Part shown: piece by piece, positions 1,517 to 16,506 of the stretch
Layout of the letters: each line of letters begins with the position of its first letter
Numbering within the stretch: position 1 is the stretch's first letter
Source: Microbotryum violaceum
Taxonomy: Eukaryota
DNA length: 64,000 nt
NCBI GenBank assembly: GCA_001244265.2
Contig: CDLV01000009.1
Coordinates: 1,364,001 to 1,428,000, forward strand
Direction of reading: 5' to 3'
Translations under genes and position numbers: made by a program
Notes under the pieces: generated by a model
What the model was told of the DNA's origin: nothing
What the model saw: only the letters and a program-made list of their open reading frames with translations
Database searches by the model: none

Positions 1517-2826
1517 ATGGCCCGTAATGAAGAGAAGTCGCAGTCGATGCTGTACCGATTCCGGGAGGCACAAGCCGCCGAACTGGGATTAGCGACCAAG
1601 ACCGATCGACGACCTCGTTTGGCCGCGTCGTGCAAGGATCTCAAGCAGTGCGAACGATGGAGGGGGGAAATCCTCAGGGAGATTAGTAGGAAGGTTTCCA
1701 AGATTCAGGATTGTGAGTTGTGAAGGCACGGCGGGAGCGAGCACGAAGGGGAGTCGAGGTCGTCGTGAGCTTCGTGAGCTGACACGCTATCGATCCCATC
1801 CCTCGTCCAGCGGGCTTGACGGACTACGAGGTTCGAGATCTCAACGACGAGATCAACAAGCTCTTGCGGGAGAAGCACCATTGGGAGAACCAGATCATCG
1901 CGTTGGGAGGCGCCAATTACAAGCGCGTCGGACTCGCGGGCCGCATGAAGGATGCCGATGGCAAGGATGTGCCGGGGACAAGAGGATACAAGTACGTTCA
2001 GTAGAGTGCATGGCGTGTGCTTGGTCTGTAGTCGCTGATTGGAGCCGCTACGTGGGACTGCTAGGTACTTTGGTCGGGCCAAGGACCTGCCCGGTGTCAA
2101 AGAGATGTTTGCGTCGCGGTGTACGTTACTGACAGAGCAGACGAGCCACAAAGCTATTGATCACTGATCTAACCATCTCGCATCCTCGCAGCAACGGAAG
2201 AAGCTGACTTGGACAGCCACAAGAAGCAGCGGATAAACCTCTTTGCGAATCCCGCCCCGGGCTACTGCGGCGACGAGGACGAGGTTGATGCATCATTGCT
2301 TGAGTCCGAGAGGGCCGCCGAAGCACAAGGTGCGTCTCCAACAGAGCTATAATGTCTTTTAGTGGCGCTTGCTGATAATTCTCTGCCTGCGTCAACAGCT
2401 TGGGAGGACGCTCTAGAGAACTTACGAGATCTCGGCCTCGTGATCCCAGAAGGCGACGATGCACCCCCGCTCCCGACCGCCAAATACATCTCCCTCAACC
2501 CTCCCACAACAACCACGACAACAGAAGCCGCAGAAGTAGCACCACCTTCAAAAGCTGAAGCGGCGACCGGCTCGAAACGAAAAGCCGCGACAACGACCAA
2601 AGAAAAAGGGAAGAGCAAGAAGGCCAAATTGGACGAAAAAGCTGCGGAAGAGGAAGCAGCCGGCAAAGATGGGGAGGAGCTTGGACCGACCAATGGTTTC
2701 TTGAGCATACTCAAGGCCGAGGATCTGAGACCGCCGCAGTTGTTGTCGGCGCAGGAGATTGAGAAGCTCATTGTTGAGCAGCAGAAGAAGAAATTATTGG
2801 CCGAGTATTTGGACGAGGACAAGTGA
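1517..2826 (+). CDS. ISY1: Pre-mRNA splicing factor Isy1 (multi-exon)
   Basis: MARNEEKSQSMLYRFREAQAAELG...CERWRGEILREISRKVSKIQD; LTDYEVRDLNDEINKLLREKHHWENQIIALGGANY; GTRGYKYFGRAKDLPGVKEMF; C-terminal KKKLLAEYL. GT-AG introns lie between these blocks. Confidence 0.95.
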
Positions 2827-2912
2827 GCTTTGTTTTTTTTGAGGTAGGAAAGTGTGAATGCACGTGCTCGTACTATTACAACATTGTATCCCTCTACACC
2901 GGTTCTCACATC

Positions 2913-4704
2913 CTAATGCCTGCGGTACTTTCTCCTCCGCGAACTCTGGATCCCAGCCCCTCTCGGCCCGACACTAGCCTTGGGTTGAACGATTTGCAAC
3001 GCCTCCCTTTTGACCAACCGCAATTTGGCCTGATCGGCCTTAAGTTGTTTCTTCTCTTGATGTCCCGAGACGTCCATCGCTTTGATACTGGCGAGGTGTT
3101 GGGCAATCACGCGGTCGATCATCGCTTGGATCGGTTCTTCCGCTTTGGGGATGTCCCCCTCCTCACCCTTCACCGCCGGTGTGAATCCCGAACCTCCAGT
3201 AGCTTCCACAGCTGCCGCGATTTCCGCTTCTTTGACCAAATCGACCGCTTCCCCACCCCTGCCCAACCCATCCAGAGTCCATCTGCCCAACTTGCCCTCC
3301 CTGAACGCCAACAAGAGCCACCTGCCCGCGAGTTCAAGATCGGGCTCCCCACCTTTTCGAACGGCTTTAAGTCGATCGGCTAGGGCGAGAAGGAAGTCGG
3401 TGCTGGAATCGAGGGTGGTGGTAAGGGGGAGATGCAGGGCTTTCATGAGGTCGTCTATCCGAAAACAATGGAAGGCGAGAGTGAGAAGAGCGTCAGAGGA
3501 CGAAAACCCTCCCGCCTGAGAACGCCCTCGATCCCCATCGTAACGAACCTTTGGTATAACCTCCAACTTCCTCCTCACACCTAGCTTTCAACCTCCAAAC
3601 CAAATAATCCCCGATCGTCTCACTCTCAAACAAACTCTCTTTAATACCCCCCGTCAAAGCCAACTTGAGCGCCATCTCGTCCCCTTTCGTTCCTTTCCCG
3701 AAGAAAGGGACCATGATCCCGGGTGTGTCGTGGATATATACGGGTGGATGGAGGGATATTTTGATGAAGGTTGAGAGACGACGGGTGTGTCCTGGGGCGG
3801 AGGATACGGAGGCGGCTTTGCCTGAGGAATTTGAGAGAGGGACGATTCGAGTCAGTGAGGAGGGAGCGACGGCACTAATCTTCAAAAGCGCAACCTCACC
3901 TTTGCCTACCCCTACGCGTCGAAGTGCATTGAGAATGGATGATTTGCCCGTATTGGGCATCCCAGCGATAAGCATCGAGATGCGATCTTCGGGCCCCTCC
4001 AAGGGGCGATCGGCGAGTCCTGAGAAAGGACCGAAAGTCTGAAAGTCAGTCTCTGCAGCGTCGCCGAGGGAGCTACAATGCACGTGAACGTACTGATCGC
4101 TGCTCGCATGAGATGTTTGATCGAAGCGTCCGATCTGGAGTCGGTGAAGAGTACAGTGTGGCCTGTTTGCTCTGATAGGGCTTTGATGATGGGCTAGAAG
4201 GAAAAATTTAGAGTGCAGTTCGCGAACTCGACCAGTGTCAGCCTACAACACCACTCAGCCCAAACTGGGGACCCAGTCTCACCTCGTGAAACTCGGGCTG
4301 TGCCAAATCGGCTTTGTTATAAACAATCAATCGTTTCGCGAACGCGCTCGCTCCTGGGATATTGAGCAAGTGTTCGAAAGCGGGGTTGATCGAGGTCAGG
4401 GGCATCCGGGCGTCGCGGGCTTCGATGACGAGGTCGACTTTTTGTTTTTGGATCATGAGCTGCATCTCTTTGAGCGCTCGGGACATGTGCCCTGTGGGGA
4501 GCAGAGGGGGGTGGGGTGAAGGAAGGCAGGGGAAGGCAAGGGAAGGCAGGGGAAGGCAGGGGAAGGGAGACTTTGGATTGTGAGTTACCGCTGATGTGGG
4601 GGACAGAGCGGAGCGAAGAGAAAAGAACGGGGGACTCAACCGATATACCATGTGCTCGGCAGAGTGGGGAACACGAAAGGTGCCCTTCGTGGTCGGGGCG
4701 GCAT
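2913..4704 (-). CDS. MTG1: Mitochondrial ribosome-assembly GTPase (RbgA/Mtg1 circularly permuted GTPase), multi-exon
   Basis: Exon 1 MPPRPRRAPFVFPTLPSTWYI, then GHMSRALKEMQ..VDLVIEARDARMPLTSINPAF, NKAD (G4), GMPNTGKSSILNALR (G1), PGHTR, DTPGIMVP (G3), and FREGKLGRWTLD. Confidence 0.9.
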
Positions 4705-4767
4705 ACTTTGAGGACAGCGAGTGGTTTGGTGGACCCGGAAGAGCGAGGAATTAGTGAGACTGTAGTG

Positions 4768-4886
4768 CAGATCGGCAGGTCCGTTAACCCAGCCAAATGA
4801 GCTCCCTCGCGCGGGCGAGTTAAGGCAGCTTTTCTGTTTTTTTGGCCCGGTTGGAGGTTGGTACAGTTCGGGTGCACCAATGCCCT
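4768..4886 (+). repeat. Left terminal inverted repeat of the KDZ element
   Basis: The reverse complement aligns collinearly with 14110-14229: AGGGCATTGGTGCACC vs AGGGCAATGGTGCACC; ACCAAC; GGGCCAAA; AAAAGCTGCCTTAACTCGCC vs AAAAGCTCCCTAAACTCGCC; GACCTGC vs GACCCGC. Confidence 0.8.
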
Positions 4887-5495
4887 CCCCACCGCAGTGC
4901 ACCTCAAATGGTCATAAGTAATAAGGGGCCACTAGTTCGTGTAAGACTCACCATCATCACGAATAACACTTCCGAAGACTCCGTCGTAAGTTCGAATTAT
5001 GTCATAAATGTCATACAGCTTGTCGTACTCAGTCTATTCAATTCGTGTAGTTCCGTATACCATCAACTGATATGTGCACGACAGATCCTGTGTAGACCTT
5101 TTCTCATTTTCGACGGAGGGAGTACACACCGTGTCTATTGGGCCCGAGGGAGGGATCGGTCGTGGTCCCTGAAATCCTGGATCGGTCCTCGGGCAGACAA
5201 ACGCGTATTCTGAACGGTGTGCACTGATCATAGAAAATGAATATCTAGTGAAACCCCTTCGGACAGTCGACTTGGGTCCAGCGCCAATCAGTCCTGCATC
5301 AATTCCTAGAGAGTAATTGAAGAGGCAAAATTGAGGCGGGGCTGTGCGGCCGCACGCGGAGCTCAGATTGGCGAGCGCTCTGCGTTAACACTTTGACCTC
5401 TGCACACTCACGTCAACGCGACAACGCGCATTCTTGACCCACGCCACGCCCCGCATCTCAATACATTGAAACCTCCCCGCGCCTGTTGAACGAAC

Positions 5496-7614
5496 ATGGA
5501 TGCTATTACCGTATGGAGGTATGTGGACGCGTTTCCCCGCCTCACATCTCCCTCCTCATGGGCCTAATTGTGTTGCTCCACCATGACGCGACCGTCAGAC
5601 ATACGCGTGGGATCTAGGGAAGGTTCTCCAGCAGAGTCTATTTCCTTTGGCGCTCATCCGAGTGAGTGCTCTTGTCTGGTGTGCCAACTGAGATCCCTTG
5701 TAGCAGGGCTGAGAGCAGAGTGCCAGTCATCAACCTCATCCTTCTAGCTACTCAATCCTGACGGACAGCTGAAGAATTCTCTGTTCTCTCACACCTCTTG
5801 CAGGTCGGAGGGACGATCAAAGCCGTCGAACCTCCTCACAAGCCAGTACAATTCTGGATGAACCGTCTCGACGCCCGACTCGGAAGAGAAAGCGGCGCAT
5901 GCCCATGCCCCAAACTCCTTCGTCCGACTCCGACTCTGACGAGCCCAATTTGGGCGATTCCAGTCAATCCTCGGCTGACGACAGTGACAGTGAAAGTGAC
6001 AGTCACAGTCACAGTGAGAGCGAGTTTGAAGATATCGCGATCGACCATCGAAGAGCTATCAGGCTCTGGACGGCCATACATGGCTCGCATCGGAACGCGA
6101 CCGGTCGTATGAGTCAAGGAAAGTGGACCTCGCTGAAGCGCTGGGCCGCTCGAAGATATTACTCGGAGCTCAAGATGGCCGTGAAACTCGGCATATCCCA
6201 TGCAAGGCTCGTTCAGGCCGTCAAAAAATTCAACAGGCTCGCTTCGAAGGGCAATGCGTGGTCTAGATCTCTCTCGGACCGTGTAATCAAGGTTTTACAC
6301 CAGCGAGCAAGCAAGGGTGAGTCGGTCCTCCGGGCGCTTCCGGTCATGCCCACTCTACTCTCCTACGCTCTCGCTTATGCTTACCGCTGCGTCCGCAATG
6401 TCTGTTCTTACATACCCTGGGTGTGTCAAACGTGCTCAGAATCGGATCAGTCGAAATCGCAATCCATCACCAAACTTGCCGCTCACCTCTGGAACTTCCT
6501 GAGAGACCAGGGGGACCTCGCATCTGCCCAACTTGGCGAGGACGACGAAGAGCTTGTTCGCGCGGCTTTTGCAGCGGCAGAGGCCGGAGGTAATACGACT
6601 TTCACTTCGATAGTACCACCCACCATCATCACACGTTCGCCATCCGACATTCCTTCCCCAACTCGGATGGAGCAATGCAAAAAGTACATTGCAGAGTTGC
6701 GAGACCTGGCGCAACGCATGTCCAAGCTGTACGGAGTGGAAACCCTGGCCTTTGTTGTCCCTCGTTATCAAGACGACGTGTCGCCAGCGACGAAGGCGAC
6801 CGTGCATTCGATAGGTGGGCTCAGATTTGCAGCTCACTGCAACGACTTCAAGGATCCATCCGGCAATTCCTTGTTGTCTAATTTTGCTTCCAAGATGAGC
6901 TGGGATGAGACACTCAAGGCCAATGAAGCGGCAGATCTGAAAGAGGGTGAGCCTTTCATCGCAAGTTATACGCGCATGAGACCAAGTTACCGTTACCAAT
7001 TATGTGACATATGTTTTCGTCTCATCTATCAGCAAAAACTCGCTCGATGGACAGTGCTACTCGTGGCGTTCTTTGCAAATGACACGGCACTCTGTTCCGC
7101 GCCCAACTCAGTAAGTAGTCTGCATCTGATCGGGCTCGACTCCGTGCTAATCATTTCCATCTTTACAGACTCTGCCCTCGAGACTATACATCGCCGTTCC
7201 GACACGGGATCATCGACAGGCGCTTTCACACCTCAGAAGAAGATGATATGGTCTACCCAGGGCTTGAAGGCACTGGGTGTCAATTTGCGGATCAAGCCCG
7301 GAACGAAGAGTAGATACGAAATGGCTCTGCATCATAGTGCAGAGACATCGCCCAAGCAAACCGTTGCTCAGCTCAAGGCTATCATTGACGACCTCCGTCA
7401 CGGCCGCCTCGCTATCGTACCCTCGGCGGACCCAAACGACAACACGGAGGCAGAGGCAAGCGACAATGACTTGACTGGCGGAGAAGGACCCCTGAGCCCA
7501 AGATTTGGTGGAGCCGAGGACGAAGGCGGAGAGGTACGTGGCGGAGAAGAAAGCGGAGAAGAAGATAGAGAAAAAAATAGCGGGGGGTGGCGGAGGAGAC
7601 CGGAGGATGAATGA
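5496..7614 (+). CDS. KDZ-associated companion protein of unknown function (acidic/Ser-rich N-terminus, possible HMG-like helical region); likely nonsense-disrupted
   Basis: A 571-aa ORF (5899-7614) plus upstream GT-AG exons from ATG 5496. Apparent introns at 6317-6439, 6947-7032 and 7111-7168. The fully spliced frame contains TGA at 7080-7082. The gene lies inside the TIRs, convergent with the transposase. Confidence 0.6.
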
Positions 7615-7899
7615 AGCAAAACATCGTCGATGTGAGACCGTTCTTATGTCTTTCTTTGGGCATACTATGCTCTGAGTCGGTCTGCAAGATGACCGATATT
7701 TGTTATGTCTCTGTGGTTTGTGACGCGTCTTTCAGTGTAGATCGTTGAGTTTAGTTTCAGATGATTGTCATGCACGCATACAGCGTCTCAGCTGCCATCT
7801 TGATTGCGGCAATTAATCTTAACAGGATTGTAAATCAATACGATCAAAACGCTCATTCTGTCAGGCTCCGCCAAGATCACTGGGCATACCCGAAACCCC

Positions 7900-8800
7900 C
7901 CCCCCCCCTCCCAGCGGACCGTTTCCTACGTCAAGGCCCGGGGGCCCCTGTGTGCTCCGGGCGCCGGCATCCCGTTCATCTACGGCCCCCTTCCAGAGAT
8001 TACGCTGAGGTCTTTCTTCACAACCAATCGTTCCGCACCTTTGTCCTACAAGGACTCGGGGCGCACCGCATGGGCCGCAGCACAACGGTGTGGCGCTCGC
8101 ATCCAGGCAAGGCGACATCTCTGCGCATCTATTTACCTTTGGGTCAACGAAATTAGAATAGCTCTCGGCCGACGCATCTCCTCTTTCTTCTTCTTCTTAT
8201 TCTGAAGTTGTGATGTACAACCAAATGGCCATACACCTTTTCCAACTTCGACCTCATCGCCGTTTCTTGCGCCTCCCGTTTCAAACACACATGCGAACCG
8301 ATCCCTCCTAATCATTATCATGTCCATGTATCCATGCTTCGTCCGAAGGTACCGTACCATTGACCGGGTCTCGTTGCACAAGTCTGTTTGACCTTTTGGC
8401 CTACCGTTGTCTTCTTCCCTTAGATACAATCTGACTTCACCTTCAGGTCGAACCGGTTGCCACTGCATAACCCTTAACTGCCTGCGCGCCGCAAAACCGG
8501 ACGGTGGACAACTGTGAGGGCATTCGGTGGGACTGCAATACAGGGTTCAGACGAGATCTCGACCTCTCCTTTCATGTACCATCCTGAATTCACCCACCGT
8601 CGCAACTATAACACCCAACTGAAGACCAAGAAGATGACCATCACAATGATGACAAGACGGTATGTCCCGTCGAAAAGAACTTTGAAAACACCCTCCCGGT
8701 TTGGGTACTTTCAGTCTGACTCCAACACGACGTGTTGTCCACCTTGGGTTTGAACCCTGATTGGTGTCACAAAAGACTATATGACCTGCCATCGCCGAAA
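7900..8800 (-). mobile_element. Possible decayed LINE ORF2 fragment nested in the KDZ element
   Basis: Broken minus-strand frames (..RRGRDLV*TLYCS.., RLYLREEDNGRPK..YLRTKHGYMDMIMI) loosely resemble the post-RT region of L1/Tad ORF2. A poly-C tract lies at ~7896-7912. Weak evidence. Confidence 0.25.
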
Positions 8801-9792
8801 ACCACGGCAGGGCAGTCGGTCGATCGATATTAGAAGGAGGCCTAGGCCACAACAGCGTGCAGAACTCTCAAGCCGCCTAATGCGATGAGAAAACGTAGAG
8901 CAACGACAGAGCAAAGGGTGTATCAAGGTGAGTCTGTGGCTTTTTTCAGTCAAATACAGCACAATACTTTGGGTATGGGTGACTATGACTTGCTGCAGTT
9001 CGACTGTTGAAACGCAAGCGCCCGTGATGACGTACTTCGCGTGAGCGTGTGAACTACGCAGGAAGAAATTGCGACAAAGCAGTACGCTGGCTATAAGCAA
9101 CTTAGCAAAGAGCTCATTAAAGTGCCACCAATGTATAACTCATTACATCATACAGAAAAAGACTGTTAGGGGTGATCAACTTCTGGTCCTTGCGTTTGAA
9201 AAGTCATCAACTAAGTGCCGAGGCAAACACTCTACGGAGCTGGGCGAGTGTGAGCCTCGGAGTGGCCGTAGCAACACCACAGAAGACCTTTGTACGACGT
9301 TGGGACTGTGAGCTGGATCAGGACTTCGTTCAAGTATACATCAAAATGTAGTCGGCAGTGTTGGAACATAATAAGTACTTTTGCAATCCCTGCTGACTGT
9401 TTGGGAAGTGTCACCCAAGGCACGACACGGACTGCGCATGTGACTGACTGGCAGGGAGCGCGGTCTACATGTAGGAGATCTCAGTGCAGTCAGTGCAACA
9501 AAGATGCAATGGACGCTTGTGTTCACTCCCTCAGTGTAGCGCGCTCTTCCTCTAAATCTTACCGGTCGTGTTGGGCTCCGGCTGCCAGCTTTACTCGAGC
9601 GACATTAGGCGAGCCACCGCAAGATCGAGCGATTTAGCGATGCCGGGTCTTGGATGTCTGATCGCTCTTGTTGCACTTCCTGGCGAAGCGTCGTATGACG
9701 GGTAGAATTACTAGCGAAATGTACGCATCATTGATCTCTTTACTAGTGCAAGTAGCAACTGGGCAAAAGACTGCAACTATATATGATCAATA

Positions 9793-12700
9793 TCAAATCC
9801 CCCAAAAAACATCGCCATCGTCTTCATCAAAGTTCTCGTTGACCCCGTCACTGAAGGCGCCGTAATCGGTAGTGTCGACGGAATGATGACTCAGATCATC
9901 GCTCGAATGATCACTGATGTCAAGAAGGGTGTCATGATCCGTGGTGATGTCGTCTGACTCTCCGACCATCCCATCATTGATGCAGTCTGGCCATGTGTGA
10001 TCCGGCAAGCCACCCGCTGTGGTTCGTTGAAAAACATCAACGTCGTCGGTGCACCACATTCGAAGCTCGACCCACTCCTCCACTTGCGGTTCGCCGGTTT
10101 GCCGGGTGCATTCCCACAGGTGATCTAGGCCGCCCTTCGAAAACCATCGGCGCGCAATATTTCTAAGACGCTCTTCTTCTTGCTCGAGCATCATCATCGC
10201 AGAGTCATCCTGCTCATCTCGTTGGAGTGATTGCTGGCGAACTTGCTGAAACCTCTTGCGACGGCTTATCAGCCACCGTCCAATGCGACGCACTTCCCAT
10301 CCAAGTCGCTTGATTTCTTGCTGGCATCTTGCGCGAGACAATACTGCTGGAATGCCGACACGAACATCATCTTCGTAGGCCCACGGCTCAGTGGGATGAC
10401 TATATAATCCGTTGTTCCAGAGCGGCGCCAAGATGTCGAGTTTGAGCAGTTCGTTGAGATCCTCTGGGGCTGACGGCGGTACCCTTCGGGTTCTCAAGAT
10501 CGAATGGGAATCCTCAGAATTGGCGAGGATGGCAGCATACTTTTTCACCTCGTCGTTATACATCGCCACTGCCTTCATGAGTCTTGGACGCAAAGAATTA
10601 AGATTTTTGACCAGGAGACCATCCGTTTTCGTACCTATGAGCTGGCATTGCTACACATCAGCGTTCCTTCTGCCGGCGCAGAAAACTCATGGATTTCCTA
10701 CCGAGGGCTTTACCGCCTAGGCGCGGGAGCCGCAGCTTCTCAGCTCCCTGTCGATATTGTACGACCAAGTCCCACAGCGAGCGAGATGCGATAGTCAATG
10801 TGCAGGCAAATTCATAGTCCGTGCCAATCAAAGGTATTGAAATATTTAAGCGAGGACAACGGGGATCACACCAGAGGGTCAGAATGGAAGAAGGGAGTGA
10901 CGTACCAGGGTCCAGGACACTGATGTTTATGTCCGAAGTGCGTAAGGAGTTCAGTCGATCATCAAGAACCTGCCGTTGTTTGGCCAGCTGTTGAAGTTTA
11001 GTCGACTGTTCTATAAGCTTGTTCGTATCTATGGTGTTCACGCAGGCTAGGTCTTCCCTGTAGCAATCGAAAAATGAATACCGAAGTTAGGTTGCCGATT
11101 CGTATCTCACTCCCAAACGACGACGATAGCTCAGACCCACCGGCATGCTGCGATGTGTCTGTTAATCAGCTCAAGCTTGAACATGACGTTGCGCATCTCG
11201 GCTACCTCTTTGCGCTGCTCTTTCAGAGGGATCTGCTTGGACGCTGCACGTTGCGCGTGTCATTGTTCAAGGAGGGTAGCGACCGTCCATTCGGCGGAGC
11301 GATTAACGACCTCAGCAATGACTCTGTCGGCTTCGGCCTTGAGCTTGATTGTGTTTTTGAGTCGAGAGTTAAGTTTGGTCACTGGGCATGATCGATACGC
11401 CAAAGATCAGCGACATGGTAAGGTAGTGCATGAAAGACTGGACGCTTAGGCGAACCAAGTTCGGCCAGATGCTGCTTGTTATAAGCAGACGCTCGACGAT
11501 TGATGTTCTCCAGCCGATGGGAGGCACTGGATGATCGGTTCATGGGTATCATGCCTCGAAGCTGCGACCACAAGCGCTCGGCTCCCTCGGCATCAGTCAA
11601 ACCAAAACTGGGTAGAAAGCGCGGATCAAAGTCAACCTGGCAGGACCACTTGTGCGCATAGGCATGCATCGACGAGAGAGCAAATTCTAGACGCGGTAAG
11701 TGGTCTGCCAGAAGATTGCGCTGCGCATACCGGGGAGAGATGAGCTGTTCAGCTACGGACTAAGCCAATGCTCAGGCTGAGTGTCACGAACAAACTCACA
11801 CGGCGTAAGTGCGACGATAAGTTGCAGGCGATATCATAAGCGACTCCAACGCGACTTCGATCCTGCCTCGAACTTTGGTGGGAGCCCGATCCCGAGCTGG
11901 ATCCGACGTTTGTAGCGTCACTGGTACGCGCAGGTCCCGTAGTACAATCCGTTTCTCCGACTTCAACTTCTTCGAGAATCCATTTCAACAGCGACACGGG
12001 ATATACTAACCTGCGGTAGACCAAACTCGCTTATTAGTGTCCTTGCCTGGAGTCACAGATGGCCGGTCCACACATACTTTTCACCTGATTGATGAAGGTT
12101 GCAAAGTCGCAGACAATGATCATGACGGCACACTGCAGCAACGAGGCCTGTGTCGGCTACTACATTTGACGAAGCGGAGGTCATACCACCATCTGCGGCC
12201 TTCCAGTTCGCTGTGCATTCGTCCTATATGATAGAATAGCCCGTTTAGCAATCACAGACAGTCGGGTCAACGCATTATTGGGTTCGGGTGACCCGACGCC
12301 AGCAGCACCAAGGTACCTGCTCGCCCGCTTCAGTCGATCCGTCGATCAAAGCTTGCTCGTTTCGAATCTTGTCTGGTGACAGGAATACCGCTGGACGTGA
12401 CTTGAGAGGATCAGCAGTTGCCCGCGCGAATCGTCGATGCTGAAAATTGCCGTCGACAGCAATGATGACATCGAGGTCATTCTCGCTCTTGCCGGCTTCA
12501 TCGATCCGAGGCCCAAAACATGCCGGACAAACGTCGGCCAGACGCTCGCGCGGGGAGAGGCCGATAAATTCGGCGGTCAAAGTTGCCTGCAGCTGTTGCA
12601 TAAATCGATATTCATCCATTGCGGCTTGAAGATGCTGACGCACGGTTGGACCCTGGGAAGCTTCCAATATTTTCTGTAAGAAACAGTGAATGTTTCCGGC

Positions 12701-13961
12701 CTGGTCCCTGTCCCAGAGCCCACCTTGTTAAAAGGATCCTCCGAGGATAATTCAGAGGACCAAAAGCGAATGAGCGCTTCGGACATGTCATAGATACCAA
12801 AAAGATCTACCCCCAGTAGGTGTCGAGATATTCGATCGTGCGAAAGGTGAATGCGGTGATGCCTTCTCTTTTTCGGATTGAAGATGACGACGTCGGGAGA
12901 AGACCGTGAGCTGCCAGGGTTTGGATCTCGGGATAGCATGGGCAGTATCGTAGTTCTCGCATGCCTGCTCATGGTTGGGGGGTATCAAATCAGTCCAAGA
13001 CGATAGCGTAGGGGTGATTGACAAAATATGTGCAGCAGAAGCACCTACCCGCAAAGAACAGGTCCACAACCCGGACCTTTCTGGTGACTCGGCGTTCATG
13101 ACATGCGTCGCACCACCCCTCGTCGTCCGGGGAAGGGACAAACCCGCTCTGTCGAAGCACTTCTTTGGCCTTTTTCTTCATCAATAGGTACGCCTGGAGA
13201 AGTTCAGCTCGTTTTGACGCCCTAGTCTTAACTTCGGCCCTCGCATTCCGGCGACGATTGCGCTGCTTCTTGGCGTTTCTCTCGATCTGCGATCGCTTAA
13301 GTGAAGAGGGCGCTTGGTCTTGAGAAGCACCGTCTGGGTGGAATGGCGAATGCTCCGGTCCAGATGAGTATCCACCGCCGAAGTCGCGACCGAAGTCGTA
13401 GTCGGGCTCAAAGTCAGGCGCGCTGTTAGGCTTGAAGTTTTGCTCGAAGCCGCCGGTCTCGGTGTCTAGAGGCCACGCCGTTGCGCCATCGGCAATGTCA
13501 GTCCAAGGCTCGGACGATGATTTGTGGAGGCCGGCAATGAATTTCTCCGAATGCTCCTTCCGACGACGCGTTGACCTCTGGACTGATGGTGATGTGGGAG
13601 GGCTCGGCTGACGTTTCGGACGCCTCTTCGTTGGAGAGCGGAAAATGCCGAAGTTGAAGCCGAACGTCTTGTCGAACAGCTCGCTATCCGGGGACAACGA
13701 TGGCCCCCTTTTCCGTACTCGCTTGGTCCATAATTTCCTCTTCTTCATCTTCTTCGTCTTCGCCTCCTCCTCCGTTCCGACCGACGTCGTGGCCCCATTC
13801 TCGAACGTGTCCTTGTTGCTGCTGGTCACCTTCTTCCTCCTCCTCCTCACGGTCGTGATCTTCTTGCGCTTGGTCTTGTCAGTGCGTTTTCCCTTCTCTG
13901 TTCCGACTGGCGATGCTGAGCGAGGTTGTAGAGGTGGTGGTGTGTGTGGTAGGATGTCCAT
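9793..13961 (-). pseudogene. KDZ transposase with N-terminal CxC (CxC1-like) cysteine cluster; frameshift and premature stop
   Basis: Spliced motifs: WCDAC..RVVDLF/RYCPCYPE..TAFTF; ERLADVCPACFG; IIAVDGNFQHRR; ECTANWKAA; DTGLVAAVCRHDHCLRLCNLHQSGEK; VAYDIACNL; MHAYAHKWSCQ..FGLTDAEGAERLWSQL. There is a frameshift near 12810 (TYWG* to GIYDMSEAL) and an in-frame TGA at 11260-11262 (LLEQ*HAQR, where W is expected). Confidence 0.9.
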
Positions 13962-14109
13962 GCTTGAAGCAATGGGTGCGAGCCTGCAAGGCCTTGGTTG
14001 GAGGGAAGTGGGGGGAACTCGTGGTGCTGAGGCAGATGGACCATGAGCGGGGATAAGTAGCAAGTGCCCGGATTAGTGACCACTTTTGCCTCCGGGGGCT
14101 GGGGTTGGC

Positions 14110-14229
14110 AGGGCAATGGTGCACCTAGCCCGCACCAACGTTTTCCTGGGCCAAATCTTCAAAAAGCTCCCTAAACTCGCCGCGCGCGGGGTAGTATATT
14201 TCTTAGGCTTATTTTGACCCGCACAGGTG
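14110..14229 (-). repeat. Right terminal inverted repeat of the KDZ element
   Basis: Pairs with 4768-4886 and is followed immediately by the TSD copy ACTGTAGTG. Confidence 0.8.
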
Positions 14230-14368
14230 ACTGTAGTGAGGAAGCGGGAGGAGAAGGGAGGAGGAGCGCTTCGACGATCGGGTCTCGCTCTCTCATCTCC
14301 TGCTTCGGCCTGTTCCTGTTGTGCAGCCGCTCTTTCCGGGGTTGTCCTCGTCAGTCACTGGCCTAGAG

Positions 14369-16214
14369 ATGGGGTTCACCGGTGCTCCCGTCAGTCAGGG
14401 TCAGTATCCAGACCACCTTGTAACCCCTGTGCCTCGCTTGAGCTGACGTAGATTCGCGAGCCGGTCCGAGCTCACCGACTTCTTTCTCGTCAACAGGGCT
14501 CATCTCGGTCATTTGCGTCGCCTCGATACTAGCAGCGACCACATCAACGCAGCACTACTTTGACCTTCCCCTCAGCCCTCACCTGACGCGTGATCATCAG
14601 TGGTGGAGGTTGCTGACACATCAGATCGCGTTCGCCAACTCGTCCGAACTCTTCATCGCGGCTTTGCTGCTTTATTTCACAAGCGTACCTGTGGAGAGGT
14701 CATTGGGGAGTCATAAATATGCCGTGAGTCCAAGGTCGCTGTAGGCTGCGTGTGAAAGTCCCCGGGGGCTCACGAATGGCCCACGTCATCTCCCGATAGT
14801 CGTTCCTCTTTGCGAGCTTCTTCTGGTCGACCCTGCTCTCGCTGCTGCCTCTCATCCTCTTCTCTCGCTTCGGCCTCAACCGGATACCAGCAGGACCATT
14901 CATCGTCGTTTTCTCCATACTGTGCGTGTGTACTCACTACCTGCGCTCCCCCAAAGTGCTTCTCGCTCACCGATCTCCGATCTCCGTCCTTGTCTTCCCT
15001 CCTCACTCCTCCTGGGGCCCCACTTGCCGAAAAATCGTGTCGGCGACTATCGGCCTCTCTAGTGCCCAATCGATCCGCCTCATGCCCACCGTCTTCTACT
15101 GGCGACTTTTCGGTATCGAAGTCACGTCCCGCATAGCGCTCTACGTCCTCTCCGCCCAAGTACGTCACAACCCACTTCGATACCCCGCAGCGAAAAAACA
15201 AACGATTCCTCACTGACCCCCCTCCTTCCCCTCACCAACAGCTCATCTTCTCCCAACCCCCCATCTCCCTCTCCCTCTTCCTTCTCGGACTCCTCACCTC
15301 CTCCCTCTACCTCTCCAATTTCCTCTCCCTCCGAAAATTTCGCCTCTCCCCTCGCGTAGTCACCCTTTCCCAACGATTCCTCACGCCTTTCGTTCCCAAC
15401 GCCGTAATAGGAACGGGGATCTTACCGAGTCGATCAACGGCGACCACGTTGAACGAAGTGATGAGCTTACAAAGGAGGGCGAACGAACAAGCCGCTGGGA
15501 ATGCAGGGGGTGGGATGGCAGGTTTCGTGAGAGGGGGAACTTTTTTACCTTCGGGAACGACCGCGACGACGAGTACCGTTCCGCCTAGTCGACCGGGGGT
15601 GACGACGGCGAGAGGGACGACGTTGACGACGGTCGAGGCGATGAATACGGGTGTCGGAGGGGATGTACCTACTCCTCCTCTACCAACGACGACGCTAACT
15701 GCCGGATCGGATACGTTGGGTACCACCACTCCTATCGTTCCTCCGGCATCCACATCTTCAGCTATGGCGGCTCAGACAGGTCCACGAGCTTTCGTTCGAC
15801 AATGGACCCAGGGGTTGACGGGGGGTACGAGTGCGGCACAACCTACTCAAGAGTGAGTCGGTCCTCTTCAAAATAGTTCGATCATCCCGGATTATTTCAC
15901 TCATGACTATCTCGTATTCGGTTGACAGACAAATCGCTCATTTGACCGCCATTTTCCCCGTGCGTCCAAGCGATTTTTTTCTCTTCTTTTTTCTTCGAAC
16001 CAACCTTCGGACCTGACTAGAGCCTCACTACTATATCCCATAGCATCATCGACGCGACCTCATCGTCTCGGCTTTACAAACTAACGGACTGGACGTCGAA
16101 AGAGGTAAGATCAGACCGTTCGTAGACCGCTCCGCGAGCTGTGCGCTGATCGTTCCTTTATTTTTTCAATTTTTTTATTGGCTTACAGCCGCGACGACCC
16201 TGCTCGCTTCCTGA
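14369..16214 (+). CDS. DSC2: Rhomboid-like membrane protein with C-terminal UBA-like domain (Dsc2/UBAC2-like)
   Basis: MGFTGAPV; HLTRDHQWWRLLTHQIAFANSSELFIAALLLY..VERSLGSHKYA; IPAGPF; LIFSQPP; C-terminal PTQEQIAHLTAIFP..RDLIVSALQTNGLDVERAATTLLAS*. Confidence 0.75.
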
Positions 16215-16506
16215 GTTGCAAAGTATGGTGACCAAATGACCGTTGAAATCGCGATTCGCTTTCCACATTTTGTTGTTCAACTTTGACAATACAACAAACA
16301 CACTGAAAAAGAGAGGATGATGTTCGAGAGGGGGAAACATGACTATGATACGGTGGAGAAGAGGACGAGGCATTCAGGTATAATGACGAAAGGAGGAGTT
16401 TAGTCAGAGAGAGTAAGGGAGAGAGAGAGATAGTGGTGAGGTATGGGAGGGTTGACGAGAAGAAAAAGCAGAGCAACACCGATCCAACAGTAGTTCGTGA
16501 TCCCAC

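What the first reader, a model, noticed from the sequence alone, without database searches (positions are those of the whole stretch)
4759..14238. Complete two-gene KDZ transposon with readable TIRs and a 9-bp target-site duplication
Seen: ACTGTAGTG flanks a 9,462-bp unit whose ends (CAGATCGGCAGGTC.. and, reverse-complemented, CACCTGTGCGGGTC..) are collinear imperfect inverted repeats over ~120 bp. Inside are a CxC-KDZ transposase with the putative catalytic motifs (DGNF, YDIAC, HAYAH, EGAER) and a convergent second gene. Known: KDZ transposases are a poorly characterised DDE class expanded in basidiomycetes, often linked to TET/JBP and HMG-domain genes. Inference: this locus defines termini, TSD length and cargo layout for a KDZ family that appears to lack TET/JBP.
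Basis: partly seen in the sequence, partly recalled or inferred. Interest (0 to 1): 0.8.

Follow-up and report, generated by a model that had tools for sequence, protein, structure and literature searches.

The report
Defective full-length KDZ transposon copy
This is a real 9.5-kb cut-and-paste DNA transposon of the KDZ class, inserted between two housekeeping genes of an anther-smut fungus and absent from that site in a relative, but this copy's two genes carry stop codons, so it is an ordinary though cleanly delimited member of a known kind.

Summary
ACTGTAGTG occurs only twice in the window, at 4759-4767 and 14230-14238, flanking a 9,462-bp unit. The unit's ends are collinear imperfect inverted repeats of about 130 bp.

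A related lineage (run X21) has one single-copy contig that joins 4757 to 14229. It skips exactly 9,471 bp, and 10 letters are shared at the joint. Other copies in two runs break at the same left end (4768/4767).

The unit encodes a nine-exon CxC1-KDZ transposase on the minus strand. A close paralogue's model has an RNase H-like DDE fold. A convergent four-exon gene of an orphan family is known only from this Microbotryum group. No TET/JBP or HMG domain is present.

"Complete" is true of the structure only. The transposase reading has a 1-nt loss in a G-run, followed at once by TAG, and a TGA at 11262-11260. Gene 2 has a TGA at 7080-7082.

The direct repeat is really 10 bp. A 9-bp duplication is the best-fitting reading, but 8 or 10 bp is not excluded.

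Mobile CxC1-KDZ elements of 9-11 kb with terminal repeats and 8-bp duplications are already described in Cryptococcus. This is therefore a new member of a known kind.

The parts
4768..14229 (.). The inserted unit, 9,462 bp
   Evidence: Run X21 has a contig that skips 9,471 bp (4757 to 14229, 10 letters ambiguous), which equals the unit plus one repeat copy. Summed contig depth on the unit is several-fold to about 30-fold that of the flanks in X1 and X9. The tool warns that this is not a copy number.
4759..4767 (.). Left copy of the direct repeat ACTGTAGTG, the probable target-site duplication. G at 4758 extends the repeat to 10 bp.
14230..14238 (.). Right copy of the direct repeat. G at 14229 is either the last base of the element or the first base of a 10-bp duplication.
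4768..4897 (+). Left terminal inverted repeat, imperfect, starting 5'-CA
   Evidence: Three contigs in X9 break at 4768 and three in X15 break at 4767, each continuing into unlike sequence.
14099..14229 (-). Right terminal inverted repeat, imperfect, ending TG-3'
   Evidence: The core motif GGTGCACCAWTGCCCT occurs only in the two arms, and 0 of 100 shuffles gave 2 matches.
5899..7614 (+). Gene 2, an orphan family. Exons 5899-6316, 6440-6946, 7033-7110 and 7169-7614; the three introns are all GT..AG.
   Evidence: Homologues are known only from Microbotryum.
7080..7082 (+). In-frame TGA in exon 3 of gene 2, where intact relatives have W (KWHG)
7615..9792 (.). Spacer of 2.2 kb between the two 3' ends, with no recognised gene
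   Evidence: No Pfam hit in its ORFs and no Rfam hit. Some other copies lack 226 bp here (joint 9085 to 9312).
9793..13961 (-). CxC1-KDZ transposase gene. Nine exons: 13961-13049, 12964-12724, 12652-12317, 12223-12078, 12010-11800, 11744-11456, 11381-11141, 11057-10702 and 10634-9793. The eight introns are all GT..AG.
   Evidence: Pfam
12933..13112 (-). Cysteine cluster (CDACH ... YCPCY) of the CxC1 type, split by intron 1
12810..12814 (-). Run of five G where the multicopy contigs of X1, X9 and X15 have one base more. The frame shifts and TAG follows at 12809-12807.
12443..12454 (-). DGNF, probable first catalytic Asp, at the end of strand beta-1 of the modelled RNase H-like fold
11824..11838 (-). 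YDIAC, probable second catalytic Asp, just after a beta strand
11574..11588 (-). EGAER, probable catalytic Glu, at the start of a helix
11260..11262 (-). In-frame TGA in exon 7, where P0004 and P0007 have W. The protein models P0001, P0010 and P0011 end exactly here.

Best explanation
**What it is.** The unit 4768-14229 is one copy of a multicopy cut-and-paste DNA transposon family of Microbotryum, belonging to the KDZ superfamily with a CxC1-type N-terminal zinc cluster.

**How it most likely moves.** The steps below are inferred unless marked as shown.
1. The CxC1 cluster and the basic N-terminal region of the transposase recognise the ~130-bp terminal inverted repeats. The repeats are shown; their binding is inferred.
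2. An RNase H-like DDE core cuts the element out at its 5'-CA...TG-3' ends. The catalytic residues are probably Asp in DGNF, Asp in YDIAC and Glu in EGAER. The fold is shown for a 97%-identical paralogue; catalysis is inferred.
3. The core joins the ends to staggered nicks in the target. Repair of the stagger gives the flanking duplication. The duplication is shown; its length is most likely 9 bp.

**Where it sits.** This insertion lies in the ~250-bp divergent upstream region between an MTG1-like GTPase gene (ATG about 4651, minus strand) and a rhomboid/DSC2-like gene.

**Gene 2.** The convergent second gene encodes a lineage-specific helical protein. It changes at about the same rate as the transposase and is probably an accessory factor. 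This is inferred.

**State of this copy.** It is structurally full-length but not coding-competent. It has a private 1-nt loss in the transposase gene. It also has two stop codons, one in each gene, that several copies in a sister species appear to share. It was therefore most likely moved by transposase supplied from intact copies, or it decayed after insertion.
For: **Insertion and boundaries**
- The empty site is seen in X21. One contig of 6,720 nt at single-copy depth (112.8) joins 4757 to 14229, with 10 shared letters at the joint. Its flanks differ from the window at 126 of 4,009 laid positions.
- The site is filled in X1, X9 and X15. In each, a single-copy flank contig starts at 14194, 36 nt inside the right end.
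- Other copies share the left end. X9 has 3 contigs breaking at 4768 and X15 has 3 breaking at 4767, with unlike sequence beyond (agreement 0.58 and 0.53).
- The terminal repeats are far above chance: 0 of 1,981 control pairs reach the observed score.
- Terminal registration gives 9 of 16 matches for the 9-bp reading, against 2-5 for the five other readings.

**Multicopy family**
- 11 KDZ cluster representatives at 71% identity or more come from two annotated Microbotryum species, as do 18 gene-2 representatives.
- 4 KDZ representatives have a gene-2 representative within two locus tags on the same contig.

**Transposase identity and fold**
- Pfam KDZ hits exons of the window. KDZ and CxC1 both pass their cutoffs on the paralogue P0007.
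- The AlphaFold model of P0001 (97.2% identical to the window reading) has mean pLDDT 69.9, with most 10-residue blocks of the core (about residue 220 onward) near 90.
- Most of the 50 listed VIA-align rows are DDE transposases, integrases or other RNase H-fold proteins. The top rows are ISCth4 (Z 8.5, 275 aligned) and Tn5 (Z 8.4).
- In 44 aligned relatives, E680 of P0001 is invariant, and D452 and D613 are conserved in 90% or more.

**Lesions**
- (a C is put in behind 12809 in all depth of X1, X9 and X15).
- Shared stops: P0001, P0010 and P0011 end at ...TLLEQ. Four of 18 gene-2 representatives read 'ANDT', which is the same TGA seen in another frame.
Against: - Only one insertion could be examined for its flanks, and the direct repeat is 10 bp, so an 8- or 10-bp duplication is not excluded. 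Published KDZ elements give 7 or 8 bp.
- Breaks at the right end in other copies were not among the rows that one search showed (66 loose-end rows were not shown).
- The empty site is in a lineage about 3% diverged, so it shows absence in a relative, not polymorphism within the species.
- The gene models rest on predicted proteins of other genomes and on GT..AG logic. No RNA was available.
- The 1-nt loss sits in a homopolymer and could be an assembly error. The contigs of the possible source run (X1) show only the collapsed multicopy form.
- A transposase truncated at the TGA would still hold the CxC1 and KDZ domains, so the loss of activity is inferred, not shown.
- Depth ratios are not copy numbers, as the tool itself warns.
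- Z scores of 7-8.5 are 'middling' by the tool's own note. Foldseek found nothing at E <= 0.001.
Confidence: 0.85

Rival explanations
1. The copy is autonomous and intact, as 'complete' implies. On this view the G-run loss is an assembly error, the protein truncated at the TGA (about 752 aa, holding CxC1 and KDZ) is an active transposase, and gene 2 is dispensable or its stop is read through.
For: The frameshift lies in a homopolymer. The TGA at 11262-11260 lies after the catalytic domain. Protein models ending at the same place exist for three cluster representatives in a sister species, so that variant has persisted or spread.
Against: Full-length relatives continue for about 430 residues that are conserved as far as Coprinopsis and Auricularia proteins. 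Gene 2 has an in-frame TGA in an exon that is conserved even in a 69%-identical paralogue. The copy differs from the multicopy contigs at 53 of 5,367 laid positions in X1, so it is not a fresh copy.
Confidence: 0.1
2. The family makes 8-bp duplications, as published KDZ elements do, or 10-bp ones. The ninth or tenth matching base here would be chance identity between an element end and its flank.
For: The repeat is 10 bp, so the boundaries are ambiguous by up to two bases ('both' = 10). Zisupton, Dileera and Cryptococcus KDZ1 give 8 bp and Kyakuja gives 7 bp. In X15 the breaks of other copies fall at 4767, one base outside the proposed end.
Against: Only the 9-bp reading puts the two arms in register: 9 of 16 terminal matches against 2-5 for the five alternatives, with CA at both ends and GGTC at positions 11-14. 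In X9 the breaks fall at 4768.
Confidence: 0.35
3. Gene 2 is passenger cargo with no part in transposition.
For: It has no recognisable domain at significance. Copies carrying a stop in it exist in more than one genome. The Cryptococcus KDZ elements also carry extra ORFs of unknown function.
Against: It was found only next to KDZ genes of this family and nowhere else: 6 hits among 1.84 billion representatives, of which 5 are Microbotryum-type and 1 is an unrelated repeat protein. In the diverged sister family, the gene-2 partner (P0031) is 69% identical and the transposase (P0009) is 75% identical to this copy, so the two have changed at about the same rate. A weak helix-turn-helix hint falls at residues 83-112 (E 0.0046, below cutoff).
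Confidence: 0.3
4. The segment is ancestral and was lost in the X21 lineage by recombination between the 10-bp repeats; it is not an insertion in the window's lineage.
For: A precise join with a single repeat copy is what such a deletion would leave.
Against: The segment has terminal inverted repeats, a transposase gene and many dispersed copies that break at the same left end. A 10-bp repeat flanking exactly such a unit is what an insertion predicts.
Confidence: 0.03

Closest known systems
Cryptococcus neoformans KDZ1, KDZ2 and KDZ3 (Huang et al., bioRxiv 10.1101/2024.08.15.608186, passages read; Gusa laboratory preprint 10.1101/2025.05.19.654958, passages read)
   Same: Size of 9-11 kb. Terminal inverted repeats of 139-241 bp, against about 130 bp here. 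A transposase with CxC1 plus KDZ domains. Extra ORFs without known domains. No TET/JBP reported in the passages read.
   Different: Their duplications are 8 bp (4-8 bp for KDZ2 and KDZ3), against a probable 9 bp here. Their movement was seen experimentally, which is not the case here. The nearest Cryptococcus protein found, from C. floricola, is only 29% identical. The gene-2 family here has no relative outside Microbotryum.
Dileera lineage of rust fungi, e.g. Zisupton-1_PGr (Kojima 2025, PMC12730594, passages read)
   Same: A KDZ transposon of the Pucciniomycotina. In my tree, the rust CxC1-KDZ proteins form the sister group of the Microbotryomycetes group that holds this family (FastTree only, no labelled Dileera reference included).
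   Different: Zisupton-1_PGr gives 8-bp duplications and carries a TET/JBP dioxygenase. Neither applies here.
Kyakuja-1_LB and Kyakuja-2_LB of Laccaria (Kojima 2025, passage read)
   Same: 5'-CA..TG-3' termini.
   Different: Kyakuja gives 7-bp duplications, has no terminal inverted repeats and carries TET/JBP.
Zisupton (Bohne et al. 2012, known to me only as cited by Kojima) and C. deneoformans KDZx1
   Same: KDZ catalytic domain; terminal repeats and duplication in Zisupton.
   Different: Zisupton-type proteins carry CxC4 and SWIM and give 8-bp duplications. Here the cluster is CxC1 and no SWIM hit was found.

Membership tests
KDZ superfamily of DNA transposons | KDZ transposase domain (Pfam PF18758) | tested here: met
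   The window's exons score 68.6 and 45.6 bits against a cutoff of 26.6. The paralogue P0007 scores 164 bits.
KDZ superfamily of DNA transposons | N-terminal CxC-type cysteine cluster | tested here: met
   CxC1 (PF18802) scores 28.8 bits on P0007, above the cutoff of 26.9. The window exon alone reaches 16.8-17.2 bits, below the cutoff because the domain is split by an intron. The CDAC and YCPC motifs are present.
KDZ superfamily of DNA transposons | RNase H-like DDE catalytic core | tested here: inconclusive
   In a model of P0001, most of the 50 listed VIA-align rows are DDE transposases, integrases or other RNase H-fold proteins, with a best Z of 8.5. The tool calls such Z values middling, and Foldseek found nothing significant. 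E680 is invariant, and D452 and D613 are conserved in 90% or more of 44 sequences.
Class II cut-and-paste element | Terminal inverted repeats | tested here: met
   Local score 60 against a control maximum of 31 in 1,981 pairs. The arms are collinear, at 34-130 and 35-131.
Class II cut-and-paste element | Target-site duplication, and an empty site in a relative | tested here: met
   A perfect 9-bp (10-bp) direct repeat. The X21 contig joins 4757 to 14229 with 10 shared letters.
Class II cut-and-paste element | Several dispersed copies with the same termini | tested here: inconclusive
   Left end: 3 contigs in X9 and 3 in X15 break at 4768/4767. Right end: no such row was among those shown. The genome is not held.
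Autonomous element | Uninterrupted transposase reading frame | tested here: not met
   A 1-nt loss at 12810-12814 followed by TAG, and a TGA at 11262-11260.
TET/JBP-bearing KDZ elements | A TET/JBP dioxygenase gene inside the element | tested here: not met
   None of the 106 ORFs of 50 aa or more that overlap the unit hits TET_JBP. Only KDZ (3 ORFs) and CxC1 (1 ORF) are found.
Dileera, Kyakuja or Zisupton clade | Placement with labelled reference transposases in a tree | not tested
   No labelled reference sequences were available, and Iyer et al. 2014 is not held. That CxC1-bearing Cryptococcus elements fall in Dileera is a lead only.

The most novel reading that the evidence does not exclude
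This Microbotryum family makes 9-bp target-site duplications, a length that none of the papers I read reports for a KDZ element (7 or 8 bp there). It also depends on a lineage-specific, possibly helix-turn-helix, accessory protein encoded by gene 2. A subfamily with stop codons in both genes has nevertheless spread by using proteins supplied from intact copies. Together these would make the family a natural autonomous/non-autonomous pair for working out KDZ transposition.
Probability: 0.35. Interest if true: 0.4.

Novelty: new member of a known kind. Interest (0 to 1): 0.3.

Why it matters
KDZ elements are large fungal DNA transposons whose ends and insertion signatures have only recently been defined, and their movement has been seen only in Cryptococcus.

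This locus gives a cleanly delimited example from the anther-smut fungi: both termini, a flanking duplication, an empty site in a relative, and full exon maps of both genes. It shows that a TET/JBP-free, two-gene layout is conserved across at least two diverged families in Microbotryum.

The locus is useful for annotating repeats in Microbotryum genomes, where transposon build-up on mating-type chromosomes is studied. It also bears on whether duplication length varies within the KDZ superfamily. It does not change what is known about how such elements work.

Tried and rejected
- **Own genome.** Not held, so the terminal repeats could not be searched against other copies and no table of flanks was possible.
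- **Earlier notes of this scan.** Nothing by place or by sequence.
- **Other copies in the window.** A blastn search of the unit against the window gave only the self match.
- **Metagenome scan.** A search for the repeat's core motif gave 6 contigs. All are one unrelated sequence that shares only the 23-nt motif, so they are chance hits.
- **RNA.** No RNA holder was listed, so splicing and expression could not be examined.
- **Gene 2.**
  - The AlphaFold model had mean pLDDT 41.2 and was not searched.
  - The protein atlas gave only unnamed Basidiomycota clusters.
  - A profile search of the PDB gave nothing below E 0.15.
  - Pfam gave only a sub-threshold HTH_50 hit.
- **Apparent extra frameshifts.** Differences from P0007 at about 12704 and about 10690 were rejected as lesions. 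Both fall inside introns with good GT..AG sites (71 nt and 67 nt). The more distant proteins P0009, P0012 and P0013 skip the second stretch.
- **Third gene.** None was recognised in the 7615-9792 spacer by Pfam or Rfam. Two of the four locus-tag pairs in annotated relatives have one tag between them, so a third gene is not excluded.
- **Fold search.** Foldseek against the PDB gave no match at E <= 0.001.
- **Tree.** The IQ-TREE 'quick' run did not finish, so a FastTree tree was used instead.
- **Literature.** Iyer et al. 2014 (PMC3918813) is not held. Table S1 and Data S1 of Kojima 2025 and the datasets of the Cryptococcus papers were not seen, and they may list Microbotryum entries or further duplication lengths.
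- **In print?** In the two full-text searches, no listed paper describes KDZ elements of Microbotryum. One search found 32 papers holding at least 2 of the 5 terms and listed 15. Four of those listed hold 'Microbotryum':
  - In Kojima 2025 the one mention concerns TCG hypermutation (passage read).
  - The other three are one paper on Ectocarpus and two versions of a paper on Cryptococcus mating-type loci; I saw only their listings.

Full report
**Observation**

The nine letters ACTGTAGTG occur exactly twice in the 64-kb window, at 4759-4767 and 14230-14238. Only 1 of 100 dinucleotide-preserving shuffles gave two or more matches. The sequence between them, 4768-14229, is 9,462 bp. It starts CAGATCGGCAGGTC and ends, reverse-complemented, CACCTGTGCGGGTC.

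Reading the flanks shows that the direct repeat is really ten letters, because G stands at both 4758 and 14229.

The two ends are collinear imperfect inverted repeats.
- A local alignment of the first 150 nt against the reverse complement of the last 150 nt scores 60.
- It pairs positions 34-130 with 35-131, with 71 of 97 columns identical.
- 1,981 random pairs of 150-nt window segments give mean 15.7 and maximum 31; none reaches 60.
- A 16-nt core, GGTGCACCAWTGCCCT, occurs only in the two arms.

**Is it an insertion?**

The window's genome is not held, so I turned to public sequencing runs.

A 200-nt query across the left junction found 21 runs that hold at least part of it, from 6 studies. 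Three of these may be the source of the window. I laid the contigs of four runs on 2768-16238.

*Empty site.* Run X21 carries a different organism code, and its flanks differ from the window at 126 of 4,009 laid positions. It has one 6,720-nt contig at single-copy depth (112.8) that runs from the left flank straight into the right flank. The contig joins 4757 to 14229 and skips 9,471 bases, with ten letters that fit either side.

*Filled site.* In X1, X9 and X15 the single-copy right-flank contig starts at 14194, 36 nt inside the element. The site is therefore filled in those three runs.

*A repeated family.* Summed contig depth over the element is several-fold to about thirty-fold that of the flanks in X1 and X9. 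The tool warns that this is not a copy number, but it fits a repeated family.

*Shared left end.* In X9 three contigs, and in X15 three more, match the element up to 4768 or 4767 and then continue in unlike sequence (agreement 0.58 and 0.53). Other copies at other loci therefore share this left end.

**The transposase gene**

Pfam KDZ (PF18758) hits two of them above its cutoff, at 68.6 and 45.6 bits.

A search from one exon found proteins 92-99% identical in Microbotryum silenes-dioicae and M. saponariae. These fall into 11 clusters at 71% identity or more over the two searches. The full-length relative P0007 passes both the KDZ cutoff (164 bits) and the CxC1 cutoff (28.8 bits against 26.9).

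Using these proteins and GT..AG sites I derived a nine-exon model, 13961 to 9793, with eight introns of 55-93 nt.

Two places where the window seemed frameshifted relative to P0007 turned out to be introns that the gene predictor had read through.

Two lesions remain.
- **G-run loss.** A run of five G at 12814-12810 is one base short, and TAG follows at once. The stretch beyond is coding, because it is conserved with substitutions in a 75%-identical paralogue and lines up with Coprinopsis proteins. The multicopy contigs of X1, X9 and X15 all carry the extra base ('put in behind 12809').
- **TGA in exon 7.** A TGA at 11262-11260 replaces a W of P0004 and P0007. The protein models P0001, P0010 and P0011 end exactly there.

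Read with X at the break, the product is 97.2% identical to P0001 and 92-93% identical to full-length relatives.

**Fold and mechanism**

I aligned 44 relatives. In P0001 numbering:
- Y612, C616, H651, H655, G672 and E680 are invariant.
- D452 (in DGNF), D613 (in YDIAC), E677 and the CRH of CRHD are conserved in at least 90% of the sequences.

The AlphaFold model of P0001 has mean pLDDT 69.9, and most 10-residue blocks of the core (about residue 220 onward) are near 90.
- D452 sits at the end of a strand (447-454).
- D613 sits just after another strand (608-612).
- E680 sits at the start of a helix (678-694).
These are the usual places for a DDE triad in an RNase H-like fold.

Foldseek found nothing significant. 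An exhaustive VIA-align search listed mostly DDE transposases, retroviral integrases and other RNase H-fold proteins among its 50 rows. ISCth4 led at Z 8.5 with 275 residues aligned, followed by Tn5 at Z 8.4, Mu, TnsB, IstA, Mos1, Hermes, the P element, Transib, RAG1 and piggyBac. By the tool's own note such Z values are middling, so I count the fold as supported but not proven.

From this I infer the usual cut-and-paste chemistry: excision at the CA...TG ends, then staggered strand transfer into the target.

**Gene 2**

The 613-codon open frame at 5773-7614 has no Pfam family. Its relatives are 18 protein clusters, all from the same two Microbotryum species.

A profile search of 1.84 billion representatives found only six proteins. 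Five are of this type, and the sixth is an unrelated repeat protein.

Guided by the relatives, the gene has four exons: 5899-6316, 6440-6946, 7033-7110 and 7169-7614.

The short third exon is kept even in the 69%-identical P0031. In the window it carries TGA at 7080-7082 where ten of the 18 relatives have W. Four of the 18 (P0014-P0017) read 'ANDT' in a neighbouring frame, which is the same TGA.

The structure prediction failed (pLDDT 41.2). The only functional hint is a sub-threshold helix-turn-helix match at residues 83-112.

Two observations argue for an element-encoded function rather than passenger cargo. This is inference.
- Locus tags place gene-2 relatives within two genes of KDZ relatives in four pairs, including a diverged family in M. 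saponariae.
- That diverged pair is 75% (transposase) and 69% (gene 2) identical to the window's reading, so the two genes have changed at similar rates.

**What is not there**

None of the 106 ORFs of 50 aa or more that overlap the unit hits TET/JBP, HMG or anything other than KDZ and CxC1. Rfam finds nothing. The 2.2-kb spacer between the genes holds no recognised gene.

**Duplication length**

Because the repeat is ten letters, six boundary readings are possible. It gives 9 of 16 terminal matches, with CA at both ends and GGTC at positions 11-14, against 2-5 matches for the others. The X9 breaks at 4768 agree with it; the X15 breaks at 4767 are one base off.

I put nine at roughly 0.6. Published KDZ elements give 8 bp (Zisupton, the Dileera element Zisupton-1_PGr, Cryptococcus KDZ1) or 7 bp (Kyakuja) (passages read).

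**State and history of this copy**

The copy differs from the collapsed multicopy contigs of X1 at 53 of 5,367 laid positions, so it is not new. The two TGA codons appear to recur in annotated copies of a sister species. P0001 and P0017, which show them, are neighbours on one contig. These stops therefore probably predate this insertion, and the copy was probably moved in trans. The G-run loss is private to this copy, or is an assembly error.

X21 also shows internally deleted copies, with joints 10088 to 12323, 10297 to 12220 and 6954 to 8965. Such deletions are usual for cut-and-paste families.

**Comparison and novelty**

The closest described things are the Cryptococcus KDZ1-3 elements. 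They are 9-11 kb long, have 139-241-bp terminal repeats, encode CxC1 plus KDZ, carry extra ORFs of unknown function, and have been seen to move.

In a FastTree of 45 proteins the window's reading groups with P0001 (support 98). It lies inside a Microbotryomycetes group that is sister to rust CxC1-KDZ proteins, with agaric Ulp1-fused proteins outside. No labelled Kyakuja, Dileera or Zisupton reference was available, so the clade is untested.

My two literature searches found no description of KDZ elements in Microbotryum. Supplements were closed and Repbase could not be consulted.

**Verdict**

This is a real and well-delimited element. It is a new member of a known kind, structurally complete but coding-defective, and of modest interest.

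Noticed in passing
window 4521-4566: A tandem repeat, GGAAGGCAGG x 4.6, lies just left of the insertion. It falls inside the N-terminal coding part of the MTG1-like gene on the minus strand (peptide ...PFPCLPLPSLAFPCLPSP...). Short-read contigs break there.
   Followed up: partly
window 10088-12323, 10297-12220, 6954-8965 (run X21): Contigs of the relative X21 join these points. Its genome therefore holds internally deleted copies of the family that lack most of the transposase gene or the spacer.
   Followed up: no
window 9085-9312 (runs X1 and X15): Some copies lack 226 bp of the spacer between the two genes.
   Followed up: no
window 4882 and 5110: Other copies carry 15 extra letters behind 4882, inside the left terminal repeat, and 14 extra letters behind 5110. 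The length of the left arm therefore varies among copies.
   Followed up: no
window 13883 and 13885-13992: The multicopy contigs lack one base at 13883. This switches the start of the transposase to the alternative N-terminus seen in P0004 (MALQARTH...) instead of MDILPHTPPP..., so two N-terminal variants of the family exist.
   Followed up: partly
proteins P0009 and P0031 (M. saponariae, neighbouring locus tags): A diverged sister family, 75% and 69% identical to the window's two gene products, keeps the same two-gene layout.
   Followed up: partly
window 5980-6017: A (GACAGT)x6.3 microsatellite encodes the acidic, serine-rich DSDSHSHS stretch near the N-terminus of gene 2. Its length differs among relatives.
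   Followed up: no
window 4651 to about 14442: The insertion splits a divergent upstream region of about 250 bp between the MTG1-like and rhomboid/DSC2-like genes. It lies about 110 bp from the probable MTG1 start. Both genes look intact, so the element's ends may now serve as their upstream sequence.
   Followed up: no
loci L001-L006: Six soil-type metagenome contigs share an exact 23-nt match to the repeat's core motif, inside one conserved and otherwise unrelated sequence. This is a chance hit.
   Followed up: yes
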